A stretch of 61,121 nt of DNA, from assembly GCA_002304995.1 (NCBI GenBank), contig DBPV01000097.1:7434-68554 (forward strand), written 5' to 3'. The position numbers were made by a program, and so were the translations under genes. Below, in pieces: positions 48,635-54,152 of the stretch (position 1 is its first letter; the number at the start of each line of letters is the position of its first letter). A model generated the notes under the pieces. The model was not told where the DNA came from. It did not search any database and worked only from the letters and a program-made list of their open reading frames with translations. This DNA is from Syntrophaceae bacterium UBA1411 (GTDB lineage: Bacteria; Desulfobacterota; Syntrophia; Syntrophales; Smithellaceae).

Positions 48635-51600
48635 TTACGGCCGGCCCGCGAACGCCGCGCCGACTTTTTTCCGATGCACCCGGCGGTTGAGCTTCGCGAA
48701 ATAAACATAAAACACCGGGGTAATGTAGAGGGTCAGAAGCTGGGAAAACAACAGCCCCCCGACGACGGCAATGCCCATGGGCTGCCTCGCTTCGGCGCCC
48801 GCCCCGTATCCCAGCGCGATGGGCAGGCTTCCGAACAGGGCCGCCATCGTGGTCATCATGATGGGGCGGAAACGGATCAGGCAGGCCCGGATAATGGACT
48901 GTTCCGTATCCATTCCTTCGGAACGCTCCGCCTCCAGGGCGAAATCGACCATCATGATGCCGTTCTTCTTGACGATGCCCACGAGGAGGATGATGCCGAC
49001 GAAGGCGTAGAGATCCAGCTGCATATGGAACAGGAACAGCGCGGCGAGCGAGCCGAATCCCGCCAGCGGCAGCGCCGTCAGGATGGTGAGCGGATGAATA
49101 AAACTCTCGTAGAGGATGCCGAGCACCATGTAGATGAGAATAATCGTGATGCCGAGCAGAAATCCCATGCTGGCAAGCGAACTCTGAAAGGCCTGGGCCG
49201 AGCCCTGAAACATCGTCCGCACCGTCGGCGGCAGCGTTTCGCCGGCCACTTTCCCGATGTTGTCCATCGCGGCGCCGATGGAGGTGTCGGGCCGGAGATT
49301 GAAGGAGATGGTGGCGGCGGGAAGCTGTCCGCTGTGGTTGATGCTCAGCGGCGACACGCCGGACCGGATTTCGGCGAAGGCGGAAAGGGGCACCAGTTTC
49401 CCCTGGGCCGATTCCACGTAAAGTTTGGAAAGCGCGGGCGGAGCGTCGCGATATTCCGGAAGGAGCTCGAGAATCACGTAATAGTAATTTGTGGAGGTGT
49501 AAATCGTGGAAACCTGGCGGCCTCCGTAGGCCGAATAAAAGGCCTCCTGGATATCCCTGAGGGTAATGTCCTGGGCGGAGGCCTTGTCGCGGTCGACGAT
49601 AATTTCCAGCCGGGGCTTGCGGATCTGCAGGTCCGATTTCACGTCCATCAGACCGGGAATGGCCTTCATCTTTTCTTCCATGAGTGTGCCGTAGGTATAA
49701 AGGTCGGCAAGCTCCGTGCTGAGCAGGGTATACTGCCAGTGGGCGGTGGTGAACCTCGCGCCGATGGTGACGGGCGGCGGATTGACCGGAGTGGCGATCA
49801 GGCCGGGAACATCGTTGAGCCGGGGCCTCAGGCGGTCAATCACCTCATCGACCGAATGCTCGCGCTCGGCCCGGGGCGGCAGGCCGACAAACACCAGCCC
49901 CGTGTTTTCGCTGATGGCCCCGACCAGGGAAACGGTTGCCGTATTCCGGATGTCCGGAGACTTAAGGAGAATGTCGTCCAGCATGTTCTGGCGATGCAGC
50001 ATGTCCTGGAAGGAGGTTTTGTCCTCGACTTGGGTGAAGATGCGGAAGTAATTCTGGTCCTGGCTGGGAATGAATCCCTTGGGAATCGTCTTGAACAGCT
50101 GCACCAGGGCGACCATGATCAGGATAGTGACAATCAGGGCCGGCAGGCGGTAGCTGAGCACGACGGCGCGCAGGGATCGTTCGTACGCCGCCAGCACCCG
50201 GCTGAAGCCCTTCTCGATGGCAGCGAAGAGGCGGCTCTTTTTGCCTTCCTGCGGACTGCCGCTTCCGAGAATCCGGCTGCACATCATGGGCGTGAGCGAC
50301 AGCGACAGGAAGCCGGAAATCAGAATGGCCGCGGCAATGCAGACGGCAAATTCGCGAAACAGGCGCCCCAGAATGCCGCCCATGAACATAATCGGAATGA
50401 ACACCACGACCAGCGAGATCGTCATGGACAGGACGGTAAAGCCGATTTCCCGCGTTCCCTTCAACGACGCCTCCAGGGGATTTTCCCCCATCTCCTTGCG
50501 GCGGATGATATTTTCCAGAACGACGACGGCGTCATCCACCACAAAGCCGATCGCCAGAGTGAGCGCCATCAGCGAGAGATTGTTGAGCGTATAGCCCATG
50601 AAATACATCACGGCAAAGGTGGCGATGAGCGACAGCGGCACCACCACGCTGGGAATCAGCGTGGGCTTCATCTCTCGGATGAAAATAAAGATGATGGCAA
50701 TGACCAGCAGAAGGGTGAGGATCATGGTGAACTGGACGTCGAAGATGGAGTCCTCAATAAAGAGAGACAGGTCATAGGCCGTCAGCATCGACACGGCGAC
50801 GGGCATCGTGTGCTTCAGATCGTTGATGCGGGCCTTGACCAGCTTGGCCACCTGGACAGTATTGGCGCCGGGCTGCTTGCGGATGCGCAGACAGACGGCC
50901 TGTCTGGCCTTGCCGTCGGTGAGGAAGCGCGCCGAAGACTTGTCGTTCTGCACACCGTCGATCACCCGCCCGAGGTCGCCCAGGCGAACGGGGTAGCCGT
51001 TTTGATAGGAAACGATGAGGGATTGAAAAGCTTTCGCCGAGGTCAGCTGTCCTTTGGCGTCCATGGTGTAGGAGGTATTGGCGCCTTCGAGGGTTCCTCC
51101 GGGCAGGTTGACATTGCCGTTCTGAATGGCGGTAAGCACCCGGTTGATGCCGATTCCGCGGTTTGCCAGAATTTCCGGATTCAGCTGAACGCGAACCGCG
51201 TATTTTTGCGGAGGAATGGCGTCCACTTCGGCGATGCCGGGCACGGTGGAAAGCTGGGGGATCAGGATATTTTCGGCGTAGTCGTTCATTTCGGTGACGG
51301 GAATCGTGTCCGAAACCAGAGAAACGACCATGATGGGCATGTCCGCCGGATTGACTTTCTTGTAGGCCGGCGGCGCGGGCATGTTGCGCGGCAGGACGCC
51401 GGAAGCGGCGTTGATGGCGGCGCTGACGTCCTGGGCGGCGGCATCGATGCTCCGCTCCAGATCAAACTGGATGCTGATGGCGGTGGTTCCCAGGGTGCTG
51501 GTGGAAACCATTGAGCTGACGGAGGGAATGGAGGAGAAGGATTTCTCCAGCGGCGTCGCCACCGTCGCCGCCATTGTTTCGGGGCTGGCCCCGGGAAGGG

Positions 51601-51748
51601 ATGCCGTGACCGTCACCGTGGGGAACTCCACGTTGGGCAGATTGTTGATGGGAAGCTGCCGGTAGCTCAGCACGCCCAGGAGAAGAAGACCCGACATCAC
51701 GAGAATGGTCATCACCGGCCGTCGGATCCAGATTTCGGAGAAGTTCAT
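48635..51748 (-). CDS. RND efflux permease (MdtB/MdtC-like)
   Basis: IRRPVMT, LPGASPETMA-x-x-VATPLE, VVDDAVVVLEN, IVKKNGIMMVDFA, RFRPIMMTT. Confidence 0.95.
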   Translation of the reverse strand: MNFSEIWIRRPVMTILVMSGLLLLGVLSYRQLPINNLPNVEFPTVTVTASLPGASPETMAATVATPLEKSFSSIPSVSSMVSTSTLGTTAISIQFDLERSIDAAAQDVSAAINAASGVLPRNMPAPPAYKKVNPADMPIMVVSLVSDTIPVTEMNDYAENILIPQLSTVPGIAEVDAIPPQKYAVRVQLNPEILANRGIGINRVLTAIQNGNVNLPGGTLEGANTSYTMDAKGQLTSAKAFQSLIVSYQNGYPVRLGDLGRVIDGVQNDKSSARFLTDGKARQAVCLRIRKQPGANTVQVAKLVKARINDLKHTMPVAVSMLTAYDLSLFIEDSIFDVQFTMILTLLLVIAIIFIFIREMKPTLIPSVVVPLSLIATFAVMYFMGYTLNNLSLMALTLAIGFVVDDAVVVLENIIRRKEMGENPLEASLKGTREIGFTVLSMTISLVVVFIPIMFMGGILGRLFREFAVCIAAAILISGFLSLSLTPMMCSRILGSGSPQEGKKSRLFAAIEKGFSRVLAAYERSLRAVVLSYRLPALIVTILIMVALVQLFKTIPKGFIPSQDQNYFRIFTQVEDKTSFQDMLHRQNMLDDILLKSPDIRNTATVSLVGAISENTGLVFVGLPPRAEREHSVDEVIDRLRPRLNDVPGLIATPVNPPPVTIGARFTTAHWQYTLLSTELADLYTYGTLMEEKMKAIPGLMDVKSDLQIRKPRLEIIVDRDKASAQDITLRDIQEAFYSAYGGRQVSTIYTSTNYYYVILELLPEYRDAPPALSKLYVESAQGKLVPLSAFAEIRSGVSPLSINHSGQLPAATISFNLRPDTSIGAAMDNIGKVAGETLPPTVRTMFQGSAQAFQSSLASMGFLLGITIILIYMVLGILYESFIHPLTILTALPLAGFGSLAALFLFHMQLDLYAFVGIILLVGIVKKNGIMMVDFALEAERSEGMDTEQSIIRACLIRFRPIMMTTMAALFGSLPIALGYGAGAEARQPMGIAVVGGLLFSQLLTLYITPVFYVYFAKLNRRVHRKKVGAAFAGRP

Positions 51749-51821
51749 ATTTTTGCCGCCCTATGCGTTGCCGCTCCTCTTTGCCCCCGGTCCGCCGGCG
51801 TCGGCGGAAACCTGCCGGAGA

Positions 51822-52985
51822 TTATTTTTCCAGGGCTCCTTCCAGGGAAGGTTTGATGATGACGGGGAATCCACTTTGAAGCTTGTTCTGGCCGTTCGTT
51901 ACCACCGTCTCCCCGGCGGCAACGCCGCGAACAATGACGGCATACGGGCCATAGAGCCGGTCGACCGTGACGGGCCGCAGCTGCGCCTTCATTTTCGGAT
52001 CGACGACGAAAACATAGCCGCCGCTCTGCCCGGTTTGCACCGCCTGAGACGGAATGATGACGGCGTTTGCCTCGGTGGCAAGAATCATTTGGACCGTGAC
52101 GAATTGTCCGGGCCAGAAAATCAGGCCTGTATTGGGAAATTCGGCTTTCAGGGTGATCATGCCGGTCTTGGCATCGACGGCGTTGTCGATGAAGGTCAGC
52201 TTTCCGCCGGCTGCCGAACCGCCGGCGCCGGCGATCCGCGCCGTCGTCCGCAACGTTCCGGCGGCGGCGACCTTTTTCACATCGGCCAGGTATTTTTCAG
52301 GGACGGCGAAGCGCACAAAAATCGGCCGGAGCTGATTGATGACGACAAGCGGCGTGCGATTGGCTTCAAGGATGGAACCCTGGCGCAGCAGCAGGGCGCC
52401 CGTCCGGCCGGAGATCGGCGCGCGGATGGTGCAGTAGGACAGATTGAGGCGCGCCTGCTCCAGATCGGCTTCATCGGCGCGAATGACGGCCAGCTGAGCC
52501 GCTTCATCGGTCCGGTACTTGTCGTATTCCGACCGGGAAACGGCGCCCTCTTTAATCAAATCGTTGTGGCGGTCGGCTTCCGCCTTCTTGAACTCATGGA
52601 GCGCCTTGTCGCGGGCCAGCTGCGATTGGGCGGCGCTCAGCTTTTCCTGGAAAGGCGCCTGATCGACGGTCATGAGCAGATCGCCTCCCGACACATCCTG
52701 GCCTTCCCGGAAGTGGATGTTCATAAGCTGCCCGGTTACACGAGCCATGACGGTAACGGAGTTGTAGGCTTCAACGGTCCCTACGGCCTCGACGGAAACG
52801 GGGATTGACCGGGCCTGGGCCAAAGCCGTTGTTACCGGAACCCCCTTCATTTTCGGCGGCGGCGCCTTCGGGGAGCAAGCCCCGATGAATCCGGCGGTGA
52901 GAAGAAGAGCGGTTACGATGACGAACGTTCGGAATCTTTGCCGGAGGGGCTCACAGAAAAGGGTACGGCCGAAAAAGGAAATCAA
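51822..52985 (-). CDS. RND periplasmic adaptor (MdtA-like)
   Basis: Probable TTG start at 52985, 8 nt after GAGGAG; lipobox IGAC; TIRAPISGRTG, FIDNAVD...G, WPGQFV. Confidence 0.9.
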   Translation of the reverse strand: MISFFGRTLFCEPLRQRFRTFVIVTALLLTAGFIGACSPKAPPPKMKGVPVTTALAQARSIPVSVEAVGTVEAYNSVTVMARVTGQLMNIHFREGQDVSGGDLLMTVDQAPFQEKLSAAQSQLARDKALHEFKKAEADRHNDLIKEGAVSRSEYDKYRTDEAAQLAVIRADEADLEQARLNLSYCTIRAPISGRTGALLLRQGSILEANRTPLVVINQLRPIFVRFAVPEKYLADVKKVAAAGTLRTTARIAGAGGSAAGGKLTFIDNAVDAKTGMITLKAEFPNTGLIFWPGQFVTVQMILATEANAVIIPSQAVQTGQSGGYVFVVDPKMKAQLRPVTVDRLYGPYAVIVRGVAAGETVVTNGQNKLQSGFPVIIKPSLEGALEK

Positions 52986-53041
52986 TGGTTTGTCTCCTCG
53001 ATGGCGTTTGTCGGACCTGTGCCGGGTGGGCACGTGGAGAC

Positions 53042-53172: not shown

Positions 53173-53913
53173 TTAAAACCCGAACAGCGCGCTTTGCATG
53201 ACGGGCGTCATCAGGCAGACCTGCTGTGTCGTCAGGTAAACGCCGCGCAGTCTGTGCGTGCTTCGGCGATAGGCTCTTGCATGTTCTTCTGACCAGAAGA
53301 ATACGCTCTCGCGTCAAAAGGCGCTGATGATGCTTTCATCTGCGAGACCGGTCAGATCGACATGCGGAATAAAGATCACCGGTTCGCAGCCGCCTTCCGC
53401 CCGAAAGGACAGGTCGCTGCCGATGGTCATCGTCATCGGCATGCCGCAGTGGGCGCAGGACGTATGGACGGTTGCCGTAAGCGATTCATTTCTCAGTCGC
53501 CCCTGCACGAAGGGCGTCGCAAACGCGTCAGCGGCTCAGGCGGCGTAAATCGATTCGCCCGTATTGAAAATCACCCGGTGCGGTGTCTGTTCGACCGTCA
53601 CCGGATACGCCCAGACGACGTTACCCGCCGCATTGCGGTAGAGAAACGTCATGTGTCCCTGCAGGTCGTCCAGAAGGGTTTCCACCCGCGCGAGCGTCAT
53701 GCCCAGGTCGCGCGCGATGGACGCGGGCTCCAGCGGCTTTCCCGAAAAAGGCAGCTTGCGGACCGCGTAATGATGCACCCGCCGGTGGTCCGGCGTCATA
53801 AAGGCCATATTGGCCACGATTTTGTCCCGGCCTCTGGCGCGCTGCCCGTCCAGCATCGCGGGCGGGATATTGAGCATGCAGCGCCACAATCCCATCATAA
53901 TTTTATTCTTCAT
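53173..53913 (-). CDS. MerB-like (organomercurial lyase family) protein with two in-frame UGA codons, predicted double selenoprotein (246 aa)
   Basis: ATG 53913 after GGAGG. Reading through TGA 53536-53538 and TGA 53314-53316 gives ...GESIYAA-U-AADAFATPF...SCAHCG...IISAF-U-RESVFFWSEEHA...SALFGF*TAA(53173-53175). These align with MerB YAW-C96-ALD99 and F-C159-xxVxFF. Confidence 0.85.
53279..53313 (-). other. Bacterial SECIS element after the second UGA
   Basis: UGA-N12-UUCUUCU-GGUC-AGAAGAA: 7-bp perfect stem, GGUC apical loop as in the E. coli fdhF SECIS, lower stem GCGU/AUGC. Confidence 0.85.
53496..53535 (-). other. Bacterial SECIS-like element after the first UGA
   Basis: UGA-N19-CGCCCUU-CGUGC-AGGGGCG: 7-bp stem (one GU pair), G at the second loop position. 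Confidence 0.65.
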
Positions 53914-54152
53914 CGACACCTCCCGTTTTGTCGGTCTGGCGGCGATCCTGCACTATGAAGCTATCGTCGGGTCAAGAATTATTTTGCCGGCAAAGTGTCC
54001 AAGATTAATGTCGCGCCCCGATATTTTTTCGCTCGCGGAGAAAGCCGGGCTGAAATGCAGGGCGGACCTTCAGATCCGCCAATGGCAGAGCGCGGAAGTG
54101 GAAGTAAGAGCGGTACAGTGTGGGGAAGGGGCTTGCCACAAACAAGGGTCGT

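What the first reader, a model, noticed from the sequence alone, without database searches (positions are those of the whole stretch)
53173..53913. Hidden double-selenocysteine MerB-like lyase: both catalytic Cys positions are UGA, each with its own SECIS
Seen in sequence: the ORF track gives two fragments (53536-53919, 53314-53508) and misses the tail. All three parts share one frame, separated by TGA at 53536-53538 and 53314-53316, ending at TAA 53173. Read-through gives 246 aa with IYAA-U126-AAD and AF-U200-RESVFF. Established: MerB catalysis uses Cys96, Asp99 and Cys159 (YAWC-x-x-D; FC-x-x-V-x-FF), so both UGAs sit at the metal-binding cysteines and the Asp is conserved. A CxxC (SCAHC) lies near the Cys117-like position. 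Both UGAs are followed by hairpins at SECIS distance, and the second has the GGUC loop of the E. coli fdhF SECIS. Inference: a Se,Se-organometal lyase. No merA/merR/merT/merP or hgcAB is in the window, so the substrate may not be methylmercury. Sec-containing MerB relatives have been reported (the SaoL family, from memory), so novelty lies in the two-Sec form and this context and must be checked.
Basis: partly seen in the sequence, partly recalled or inferred. Interest (0 to 1): 0.92.

Follow-up and report, generated by a model that had tools for sequence, protein, structure and literature searches.

The report
Two-selenocysteine MerB-like enzyme gene
This is one intact gene for a relative of MerB, the enzyme that splits methylmercury, in which both metal-gripping cysteines are replaced by selenocysteine; the family is widespread in anaerobic bacteria, is cut short in databases, and I found no description of it.

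Summary
Window 53173-53913 (- strand) is one 246-codon frame with in-frame TGA at codons 126 and 200 and a TAA stop.

- **Fold:** the read-through protein matches Pfam MerB, and its model matches only MerB structures. The two TGAs align with MerB Cys96 and Cys159, and the catalytic Asp is kept.
- **Conservation:** both TGAs are present in all 80 related species loci and in all 27 carriers among 401 sampled genomes of the phylum.
- **SECIS signals:** each TGA is followed by a hairpin. Synonymous codon choice is frozen only at these hairpins, and one base pair covaries.
- **Sec machinery:** selA, selB and a TGA-containing selD are present. tRNA-Sec is missing from this fragmented assembly but present in four congeners.
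- **Not SaoL:** SaoL, the only described MerB-like selenoprotein, has one Sec. This protein scores 36 bits against a cut-off of 140.
- **Genome context:** the genome (Smithellaceae) has hgcAB but no merA. The link with hgcA is not robust once bacterial family is controlled for.
- **New here:** a MerR-type promoter with a 19-nt spacer lies upstream. The same motif precedes a Cys-free MerR-family regulator encoded elsewhere in the genome.

The two-selenocysteine reading is well supported. The lyase function and the substrate are inferred.

The parts
53173..53913 (-). Coding sequence of the two-Sec MerB-like protein (246 codons plus TAA stop; Sec126, Asp129, Cys153-x-x-Cys156, Sec200)
   Evidence: frame; PF03243; AF2 pLDDT 91.5, MerB fold; full-length orthologues start MKNK....
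53536..53538 (-). UGA1, the Sec126 codon, aligned with MerB Cys96
   Evidence: alignment (YAA-C-AAD against YAW-C-ALD). TGA here in 81 of 81 family genes including the window's and in 27 of 27 carriers in the phylum sample. Cys here in the C/U forms.
53527..53529 (-). GAC, Asp129, equivalent to the MerB Asp99 proton donor
   Evidence: At least 90% conserved in alignment A1 and 81 of 81 in the species set (position 124 of that numbering).
53498..53516 (-). SECIS-like hairpin 1 (CGCCCUU / CGUGC / AGGGGCG), starting 19 nt after UGA1 and spanning codons T-P-F-V-Q-G-R
   Evidence: centroid structure; alifold consensus; codons CCC, TTC, GTG and GGG fixed in 80-81 of 81 species; pair 32-48 is G-C (68) or U-A (6).
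53314..53316 (-). UGA2, the Sec200 codon, aligned with MerB Cys159
   Evidence: TGA in 81 of 81 family genes including the window's, and 27 of 27. Cys here in P0029 and P0061.
53279..53306 (-). SECIS-like hairpin 2 (UUCUUCU / GGUC / AGAAGAA with a lower stem GCGU...AUGC), upper stem starting 12 nt after UGA2 and spanning codons F-F-W-S-E-E
   Evidence: the loop-closing pair is U-A (65), C-G (14) or U-G (2), with no mismatch. TTC TTC and GAA fixed in 81 of 81.
53446..53457 (-). Conserved C-A-H-C motif (Cys153, Cys156). The first Cys aligns with the structural Cys117 of MerB.
   Evidence: C155 invariant and C158 at least 90% conserved (numbering from the GTG start). Role unknown.
53945..53975 (-). 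Conserved promoter/operator TTGACC-19 nt-CAGGAT (MerR-type spacing)
   Evidence: conserved in close relatives; 25 of 77 loci, upstream of the gene or of the adjacent MerR-like regulator; only two sites in this genome, this one and the promoter of the MerR-like regulator at C75:134404-134913.
53919..53924 (-). Ribosome-binding site GGGAGG, 5 nt before the ATG
   Evidence: AGGAG-like sites sit at the same place in orthologues.
48635..53033 (-). Downstream same-strand MdtA-type adaptor (51822-53033) and MdtB/C-type RND permease (48635-51748). They may be co-transcribed but are not a conserved partner.
   Evidence: family assignment; no terminator-like site in the 139-nt gap. RND adjacency in only 2 of 77 loci.

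Best explanation
The three table-11 fragments are one gene for a 246-residue cytoplasmic protein with the MerB (organomercurial lyase) fold. Both metal-ligating catalytic cysteines are selenocysteines (Sec126 and Sec200), and the catalytic aspartate (Asp129) is retained. Each UGA is recoded by its own SelB-type hairpin lying within the coding sequence just downstream.

Shown:
- one intact frame;
- the MerB fold;
- exact alignment of the UGAs with Cys96 and Cys159;
- conservation of both UGAs across about 100 species;
- RNA-level constraint on both hairpins;
- Sec biosynthesis genes in the genome.

Inferred: the protein acts like MerB. Two selenolates bind a soft metal(loid) that carries a carbon ligand, and Asp129 delivers the proton that releases the hydrocarbon (protonolysis of a metal-carbon bond). 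The selenolates have a low pKa and are softer and tighter ligands than thiolates. They would let the enzyme capture its substrate in sulfide- and thiol-rich anaerobic cells. Methylmercury is the most obvious candidate, because the organism carries hgcAB and no merA. Other organometal(loid)s are not excluded.

Expression is probably inducible. It would run through a MerR-type promoter with a 19-nt spacer, recognised by a Cys-free MerR-family activator that is encoded next to the gene in many species and in trans here.
For: - Frame and motifs.
- Family and fold: PF03243 at 54.4 bits against a cut-off of 27. AF2 model pLDDT 91.5 and pTM 0.88, with only MerB/MerB2 as structural matches (E 7e-12 to 1e-10, TM 0.75-0.82). 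Residue alignment to Cys96, Asp99, Cys117 and Cys159.
- Both TGAs are conserved: 6 of 6 full-length genes (this genome plus five relatives), all 80 kept species loci (76 parsed, all 80 by motif), and 27 of 27 carriers among 401 phylum genomes, down to 33% identity.
- The coding signature continues after each UGA: amino-acid identity 0.52, 0.58 and 0.62 in the three segments, with third codon positions the most divergent in all three.
- SECIS: normalised synonymous-codon entropy is 0.16 for the 11 hairpin codons and 0.84 for 63 other conserved codons (Mann-Whitney p = 2e-7). The seven most frozen codons of the gene all lie in the two hairpins. Compensatory U-A to C-G changes occur without mismatches.
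- Cys homologues exist for each site separately.
- Machinery: selA 603 bits, selB 355 bits, selD 374 bits with its own in-frame TGA. tRNA-Sec is present in four congeners that carry the gene.
- Regulation.
- Genome setting: hgcAB present, no MerA above cut-off, and this is the only PF03243 gene in the genome.
Against: - No tRNA-Sec gene was found in this assembly. The assembly has only 40 tRNAs and lacks tRNA-Ile and tRNA-Tyr too, so a gap is likeliest, but it is unproven.
- Neither hairpin folds better than shuffled sequence, and no Rfam SECIS model matches.
- There is no biochemical evidence for Se incorporation or for any lyase activity.
- The gene neighbourhood is not conserved and holds no mer genes. 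The enrichment with hgcA (OR 3.1, p = 0.006) is not significant when stratified by bacterial family (MH OR 2.6, CMH p = 0.25).
- The associated regulator has no conserved Cys. It is therefore not a thiolate-type Hg sensor, which weakens a mercury-specific reading.
- A Hg(Se)2 chelate would be very stable, and no acceptor for the product is evident.
Confidence: 0.8

Rival explanations
1. It is a genuine two-Sec selenoprotein of the MerB fold, but not a carbon-metal lyase. It could be a high-affinity soft-metal (Hg, Cd, Cu, Ag) or selenium/chalcogen binding or hand-over protein. It could also be a redox protein that cycles between a diselenide or selenenylsulfide and the reduced form, using the conserved CxxC.
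For: - The C-A-H-C pair is conserved in addition to the two Sec residues.
- No mer or other organometal genes are nearby.
- The regulator is not a thiolate metal sensor.
- From the literature, MerB variants bind other metals: MerB2 and the D99S variant bind copper (PDB 5c17 and 5c0t appear; cited in 10.1101/2022.07.06.499078).
- S/C and degenerate paralogues show that the fold tolerates other active sites.
Against: - The Asp at the proton-donor position is essentially invariant. That is expected for protonolysis and unnecessary for simple chelation.
- The first Cys of CAHC aligns with MerB Cys117, which is known from the MerB literature to be buried and structural.
Confidence: 0.2
2. It is specifically the missing anaerobic methylmercury demethylase. 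It would be functionally coupled to HgcAB methylation in the same cells, as a Sec-based, mer-independent MeHg lyase.
For: - hgcA and hgcB are present in this genome.
- 14 of 27 carriers have the hgcA cap-helix motif, against 97 of 374 non-carriers (OR 3.1, p = 0.0065).
- No MerA and no other MerB are present in the genome.
- The MerB active-site geometry is retained.
Against: - About half the carriers lack hgcA, and one carrier family (f33, 5 carriers) has none at all.
- The association is not significant once bacterial family is controlled for (CMH p = 0.25).
- The gene is never adjacent to hgcAB in the 77 loci examined.
- The regulator lacks Hg-binding cysteines.
Confidence: 0.3
3. It is a pseudogene or three independent small ORFs, and the TGAs are true stops.
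For: Table-11 ORF callers split the gene. Most database entries are 125-residue fragments that end just before UGA1. selC was not found in this assembly.
Against: - Both TGAs are conserved at identical codons in about 100 species, with no other stops or frameshifts.
- Downstream segments are more conserved than the first one and show the codon-position pattern of coding sequence.
- The hairpins are under selection.
- The fragments lack their own start signals, and the catalytic residues are split between them.
Confidence: 0.02
4. The UGAs are read as another amino acid (Trp, Cys or Gly) through a variant genetic code or near-cognate suppression, not as Sec.
For: JGI gene calls translate homologues with W at both sites.
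Against: - Neighbouring genes and some orthologues of this gene end with TGA under table 11.
- The W calls are what an alternative-table gene caller produces on short contigs.
- A SelB-type hairpin follows each UGA, and selA, selB and selD are present.
- Trp at both metal-ligand positions makes no structural sense.
Confidence: 0.02

Closest known systems
SaoL, the 'selenocysteine-assisted organometallic lyase' (NCBIfam NF040728; Haft & Gwadz, bioRxiv 10.1101/2022.07.06.499078)
   Same: Both have the MerB fold (PF03243), occur in strict anaerobes, are truncated in databases at a UGA, carry a Sec at the position of MerB Cys159, and keep the Asp.
   Different: - SaoL has one Sec, in a C-U dipeptide, and keeps Cys at the Cys96 position. 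This protein has Sec at both positions, and a Phe (not Cys) precedes the second Sec.
- It scores 35.9 bits against the SaoL cut-off of 140.
- SaoL marks a conserved nine-gene SAO locus. This family has no conserved neighbours except a regulator.
- This protein is about 246 residues; SaoL is about 213.
MerB organomercurial lyase (EC 4.99.1.2; PDB 3f0o, 3f0p, 5c17; NF009710, NF033555)
   Same: Overall fold (TM 0.75-0.82). The catalytic triad positions Cys96, Asp99 and Cys159 and the structural Cys117 align.
   Different: - About 19% identity, and below both NCBIfam MerB cut-offs (56 against 193 bits; 47 against 200 bits).
- Sec replaces both Cys residues.
- There is an extra N-terminal beta-hairpin and helix.
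- There is no mer operon and no MerA in the genome.
- It occurs in obligate anaerobes rather than in aerobic Hg-resistant bacteria.
One-Sec relatives within the same clade (C/U forms such as P0023, P0028, P0062, P0064 and P0065) and S/C forms (P0029, P0061)
   Same: 36-51% identity over the same architecture, with the same motifs around both sites.
   Different: They have Cys at site 1 with UGA at site 2, or Ser at site 1 with Cys at site 2. The window's gene belongs to the dominant U/U form.

Membership tests
MerB family (Pfam PF03243) | Sequence match above the Pfam gathering score | tested here: met
   54.4 bits against 27, residues 108-235; 38.4 bits in the six-frame genome search.
MerB family (Pfam PF03243) | MerB three-dimensional fold | tested here: met
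   AF2 pLDDT 91.5. Foldseek top 11 hits are all MerB or MerB2, E 7e-12 to 3e-7.
Organomercurial lyase MerB proper (EC 4.99.1.2; NF009710/NF033555) | Score above the NCBIfam equivalog cut-off | tested here: not met
   56.5 against 193 bits, and 46.6 against 200 bits.
Organomercurial lyase MerB proper (EC 4.99.1.2; NF009710/NF033555) | Catalytic Cys96 and Cys159 as cysteines, plus Asp99 | tested here: not met
   The Asp is present. Both Cys positions are UGA (Sec).
Organomercurial lyase MerB proper (EC 4.99.1.2; NF009710/NF033555) | mer operon context (merA, merR, merT/P) | tested here: not met
   Neighbours are malic enzyme, a carboxylase subunit and an RND pump. No MerA above cut-off in the genome.
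Organomercurial lyase MerB proper (EC 4.99.1.2; NF009710/NF033555) | Protonolysis of Hg-C bonds | not testable with these tools
   Needs an enzyme assay.
SaoL (NF040728) | Score above the NCBIfam cut-off (140 bits) | tested here: not met
   35.9 bits, partial match to residues 70-169.
SaoL (NF040728) | C-U dipeptide at the Cys159/160 position, with Cys retained at the Cys96 position | tested here: not met
   The motif is A-F-U-R, and the first site is U, not C.
SaoL (NF040728) | Location in the nine-gene SAO locus | tested here: not met
   No conserved neighbourhood in 77 loci other than a MarR- or MerR-type regulator. Sao genes were not searched for individually.
Bacterial selenoprotein (SelB/SECIS-dependent) | In-frame UGA conserved among orthologues, with coding conservation downstream | tested here: met
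Bacterial selenoprotein (SelB/SECIS-dependent) | Stem-loop immediately downstream of the UGA, with a G/U-containing apical loop at SECIS distance | tested here: met
   Loops start 27 nt (CGUGC) and 20 nt (GGUC) after the UGAs. Synonymous-site freezing and covariation are shown. Single-sequence energy is not significant.
Bacterial selenoprotein (SelB/SECIS-dependent) | Homologues with Cys at the UGA positions | tested here: met
   Site 1 is Cys in P0023, P0028, P0062, P0064 and P0065. Site 2 is Cys in P0029 and P0061. Both are Cys in MerB.
Bacterial selenoprotein (SelB/SECIS-dependent) | selA, selB, selC and selD in the genome | tested here: inconclusive
   selA, selB and selD are above cut-off. 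selC was not found in this 148-contig assembly but is present in four congeneric carriers.
Bacterial selenoprotein (SelB/SECIS-dependent) | Selenium actually incorporated | not testable with these tools
   Needs 75Se labelling or mass spectrometry.

The most novel reading that the evidence does not exclude
This family may be a diselenolate carbon-metal lyase that gives strictly anaerobic, often mercury-methylating bacteria a mer-independent way to break methylmercury or other organometal(loid)s. If so, it would be the long-sought enzyme behind anaerobic demethylation in sediments. It would also be the first enzyme whose two metal ligands are both selenocysteine.
Probability: 0.3. Interest if true: 0.9.

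Novelty: new variant of a known kind. Interest (0 to 1): 0.78.

Why it matters
- **Mercury cycling:** net methylmercury in anoxic sediments, rice paddies and guts depends on both methylation (HgcAB) and demethylation. The enzymes for mer-independent anaerobic demethylation are unknown. A widespread MerB-fold enzyme with a Se,Se active site, found in the same guilds and sometimes the same cells as HgcAB, is a concrete candidate that can be cloned.
- **Selenium biology:** replacing both catalytic metal ligands with Sec, each with its own coding-region SECIS, is an unusual design. It sets up a clean test of what selenolates offer over thiolates for soft-metal chemistry.
- **Annotation:** hundreds of database entries are 125-residue stubs or carry Trp at the Sec sites. 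Surveys of merB diversity and of selenoproteomes therefore miss this family.

Tried and rejected
- **tRNA-Sec in this genome:** ARAGORN at default and relaxed thresholds, Rfam RF01852, and blastn with the congeners' tRNA-Sec were all tried. The best RF01852 hit is tRNA-Ser(CGA) and the relaxed ARAGORN hit is a poor cloverleaf. None was found.
- **Single-sequence folding of the two hairpins:** not better than shuffles, so I dropped it as evidence.
- **Rfam scan of the gene region:** only chance hits.
- **Conserved gene neighbourhood:** ORF clustering over 77 loci found no metabolic or transport partner. The RND pump is adjacent in only 2 loci.
- **Co-occurrence with hgcA:** nominally enriched, but not robust to stratification by bacterial family.
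- **Effector domain of the MerR-like regulator:** AF2 plus Foldseek recognised only the N-terminal MerR module. The regulator family also occurs in 11 non-carrier genomes, mostly as a solitary gene.
- **In-frame TGA reported in one regulator homologue (G311):** it lies upstream of the start codon and is not a Sec codon.
- **Pseudogene and alternative-code readings:** rejected; see the rival explanations.
Full report
**Observation.** On the minus strand, ATG 53913 is preceded by GGGAGG and opens a frame that runs to TAA 53175-53173. Only two codons interrupt it: TGA 53538-53536 (codon 126) and TGA 53316-53314 (codon 200). Orthologues begin MKNK..., so ATG 53913 is the start, not GTG 53919. The local motifs are IYAA-U-AAD, SCAHC and AF-U-RESVFF.

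**What the protein is.** With U read as C, the protein matches Pfam MerB (PF03243, 54.4 bits against a cut-off of 27).
- It is below the cut-offs of both NCBIfam MerB equivalogs and of SaoL (56.5 against 193, 46.6 against 200 and 35.9 against 140 bits).
- phmmer against PDB aligns U126 with Cys96 of MerB (YAW-C-ALD), Asp129 with Asp99, U200 with Cys159, and the first Cys of SCAHC with Cys117.
- An AlphaFold2 model built on 35 homologues is confident (pLDDT 91.5, pTM 0.88).
- Foldseek against PDB returns only MerB and MerB2 as significant matches (E 7e-12 to 3e-7, TM 0.64-0.82 normalised to the target).
- It is the only PF03243 gene in the genome.

**Are the TGAs conserved?**
- In a search of this genome and 60 relatives, five other genomes carry a full-length orthologue (57-73% identity). 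Four are congeners and one is from another family. All have exactly two in-frame TGAs.
- A scan of 185,579 species genomes found 399 that encode a relative. All 80 kept loci have TGA at both sites: 76 were parsed, and all 80 were recovered by motif.
- By record titles these genomes are mostly Syntrophales, Desulfobacterales, Desulfomonilaceae and Desulfarculales, with some Nitrospirota and others. The nearest are Smithellaceae.
- In an even sample of 401 genomes of the phylum, 27 carry the gene. Every main hit has both TGAs, down to 33% identity.
- 'Full-length' JGI metagenome proteins carry W at both sites. That is what a gene caller produces when it falls back on a TGA=Trp table.
- In an exhaustive phmmer search, most cluster representatives are about 125-residue stubs that end at the residue before UGA1.
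- Cys homologues exist for each site separately. C/U forms have Cys at site 1 and end just before site 2. S/C forms have Cys at site 2. A degenerate paralogue group lacks the site-1 residue and the Asp.

**Is the sequence after each UGA coding?** Mean amino-acid identity to the window's protein is 0.52 before UGA1, 0.58 between the UGAs and 0.62 after UGA2. In all three segments the third codon position diverges most (0.53-0.57, against 0.22-0.36 for positions 1 and 2). This excludes a pseudogene or independent fragments.

**SECIS elements.**
- Hairpin 1 (53516-53498) is CGCCCUU / CGUGC / AGGGGCG and starts 19 nt after UGA1.
- Hairpin 2 (53306-53279) has a 7-bp upper stem UUCUUCU / AGAAGAA with a GGUC loop, starting 12 nt after UGA2, plus a lower stem.
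- Taken alone, neither folds better than shuffled sequence (z = +0.5 and -0.3), and Rfam has no matching model.
- The comparative signal is strong. RNAalifold recovers both hairpins from 81 sequences.
- The loop-closing pair of hairpin 2 is U-A in 65 sequences, C-G in 14 and U-G in 2, with no mismatch. A Trp-to-Arg change is accompanied by a synonymous UCA-to-UCG change. A pair of hairpin 1 switches G-C (68) to U-A (6).
- Most telling is codon choice among amino-acid columns that are at least 90% conserved. Normalised codon entropy is 0.16 for the 11 hairpin codons and 0.84 for the other 63 (Mann-Whitney p = 2e-7). The seven most frozen codons of the whole gene (CCC, TTC, GTG and GGG in hairpin 1; TTC, TTC and GAA in hairpin 2) all lie in the hairpins. 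The same amino acids elsewhere use their commonest codon only 35-74% of the time.
- Both hairpins are therefore under RNA-level selection, as expected for functional SECIS elements.

**Sec machinery.**
- The genome (3.42 Mb, 148 contigs, 95.8% complete) has selA (603 bits), selB (355 bits, full length) and selD (374 bits, itself with an in-frame TGA).
- No tRNA-Sec was found. The best RF01852 hit is tRNA-Ser(CGA), and the relaxed ARAGORN candidate is unconvincing.
- The assembly yields only 40 tRNAs and also lacks tRNA-Ile and tRNA-Tyr.
- Four congeneric genomes that carry the gene have a clear tRNA-Sec (62-77 bits, UCA anticodon), which has no blastn match in this assembly.
- An assembly gap is the likeliest explanation, but this item stays formally open.

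**Context and regulation.**
- Upstream on the same strand lie malic enzyme and a carboxylase subunit. Downstream, after 139 nt with no terminator-like site, lie an MdtA-type adaptor and an MdtB/C-type multidrug RND permease, not a CusA/CzcA heavy-metal pump.
- Across 77 loci the neighbourhood is not conserved. An RND pump is adjacent in only two.
- The one recurrent neighbour is an upstream same-strand regulator: MarR-type in 18 loci and MerR-type in 15.
- I found a conserved promoter, TTGACC-19 nt-(T/C)A...T (consensus TTGACCCGACTACAGCTTCATAGTGCAGGAT). It lies directly upstream of the gene where no regulator is adjacent, including window 53975-53945. Where the MerR-like gene precedes the gene, the motif lies upstream of the regulator in 13 of 15 loci. 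In total 25 of 77 loci have it.
- In this genome only two sites match with up to 7 mismatches. One is the window's promoter. The other is the promoter of an orthologue of that regulator at C75:134404-134913 (48% identity). The 19-nt spacer is the hallmark of MerR-activated promoters (established knowledge).
- The regulator has no conserved cysteine, and some members have none at all. Its model matches only the N-terminal MerR module (TipAL, CadR, CueR, MtaN), and the C-terminal helical domain is uninformative.
- The regulator family occurs in 5 of 27 carriers and in 11 of 374 non-carriers. In non-carriers it is mostly solitary, and once it follows an SRPBCC-type gene.
- The regulator is therefore not dedicated to this gene and probably does not sense Hg through thiolates.

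**Mercury link.**
- The genome encodes HgcA (cap-helix motif NVWCAAGK) and HgcB (CMECGAC motif) on contig C124, so the organism is a predicted mercury methylator.
- It has no MerA above cut-off (best 224 bits against 454).
- In the phylum sample the hgcA motif occurs in 14 of 27 carriers and 97 of 374 non-carriers (Fisher OR 3.1, p = 0.0065). Within the families that contain carriers the figures are 13 of 25 against 14 of 35 (Mantel-Haenszel OR 2.6, p = 0.25).
- The association may therefore reflect shared phylogeny and habitat, and half the carriers lack hgcA.

**Comparison with what is known.**
- The only MerB-like selenoprotein in the searchable literature and in NCBIfam is SaoL. It has one Sec in a C-U dipeptide aligned with Cys159, keeps Cys at the Cys96 position, and marks a nine-gene SAO locus (Haft & Gwadz, 10.1101/2022.07.06.499078).
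- Selenoproteome reviews from 2022 and 2026 list only that family, with one Sec (PMC9312934 and PMC13188914).
- Four full-text searches found no two-Sec MerB-like protein.
- The window's gene fails each SaoL criterion that I could test.
- Earlier notes from this same scan describe the same family in other genomes and read it the same way. These are AI notes and do not count as independent support. I re-derived the claims here.

**Mechanism.**
- Shown: a MerB fold with the Sec-x-x-Asp ... Sec positions, and two functional-looking SECIS elements.
- Inferred: MerB-type protonolysis of a metal(loid)-carbon bond, with two selenolates as ligands and Asp129 as the proton donor.
- Inferred rationale: selenolates are deprotonated at physiological pH and bind soft metals more tightly than thiolates. 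That would help in sulfidic, thiol-rich anaerobes.
- Open problem: this makes product release difficult, and no acceptor is evident.
- The substrate is unknown. Methylmercury is the leading candidate, but the regulator and the context do not point specifically to mercury. A non-lyase role (metal binding, hand-over or redox) remains a real alternative.

**Verdict.** This is a real, intact member of a large and apparently undescribed two-selenocysteine branch of the MerB superfamily. It is a new variant of a known kind (MerB-like selenoproteins). Confidence in the two-Sec reading is about 0.9, in lyase chemistry about 0.5, and in methylmercury as the physiological substrate about 0.3.

Noticed in passing
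own genome, contig C124:2-919 (hgcA, cut by the contig end) and about 940-1240 (hgcB): An hgcA-hgcB pair is present, with the NVWCAAGK cap helix and the CMECGAC ferredoxin motif. The organism is therefore a predicted mercury methylator.
   Followed up: partly
own genome, C79:71627-72556 (-): selD itself carries one in-frame TGA, so it is a Sec-containing selenophosphate synthetase. This is independent evidence that the organism decodes UGA as Sec.
   Followed up: no
own genome, C75:134266-134913 (+), with neighbours at 128063-133031 (-): The MerR-like regulator that shares the window gene's operator lies next to a divergent arsenic-type cluster: a low-molecular-weight phosphatase-type ArsC, an Acr3-like permease, and thioredoxin/glutaredoxin-like and CcdA-like genes. 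The assignments are by eye from N-terminal sequences. No ars genes recur near the family elsewhere.
   Followed up: partly
proteins P0002-P0050 (JGI metagenome gene calls): Many 'full-length' database homologues have Trp at both Sec positions. This is most likely TGA translated under an alternative table on short contigs, and it hides the selenoprotein nature. The one contig I looked up had no DNA available, so this is unverified at the nucleotide level.
   Followed up: partly
proteins P0059, P0063, P0068, P0091, P0169, P0072, P0073: A divergent paralogue group of the same length lacks Sec or Cys and the Asp at site 1 (Gly, Glu or Ser instead). It has an F-C motif next to site 2 and a conserved CxxC. 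It may be a non-catalytic or differently catalytic branch.
   Followed up: no
L024:7207-11618 (metagenome contig with the C/U form P0028): The one-Sec (C/U) relative sits between a PhzF-family gene and two GNAT acetyltransferases, an Asp/Glu racemase and a methyltransferase with weak TPMT-family hits. This context differs from that of the U/U family.
   Followed up: no
L118:3319-4516 (genome G311, which does not carry the gene): The same operator motif drives an SRPBCC (Polyketide_cyc2, borderline 26.6 bits) gene followed by the MerR-like regulator. The regulator family therefore has other targets.
   Followed up: partly
window 53362-53958 (+): A 198-codon open frame lies antisense to the gene and has relatives in 24 other loci. 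It is a shadow ORF of the conserved, GC-rich coding sequence, not a gene.
   Followed up: partly
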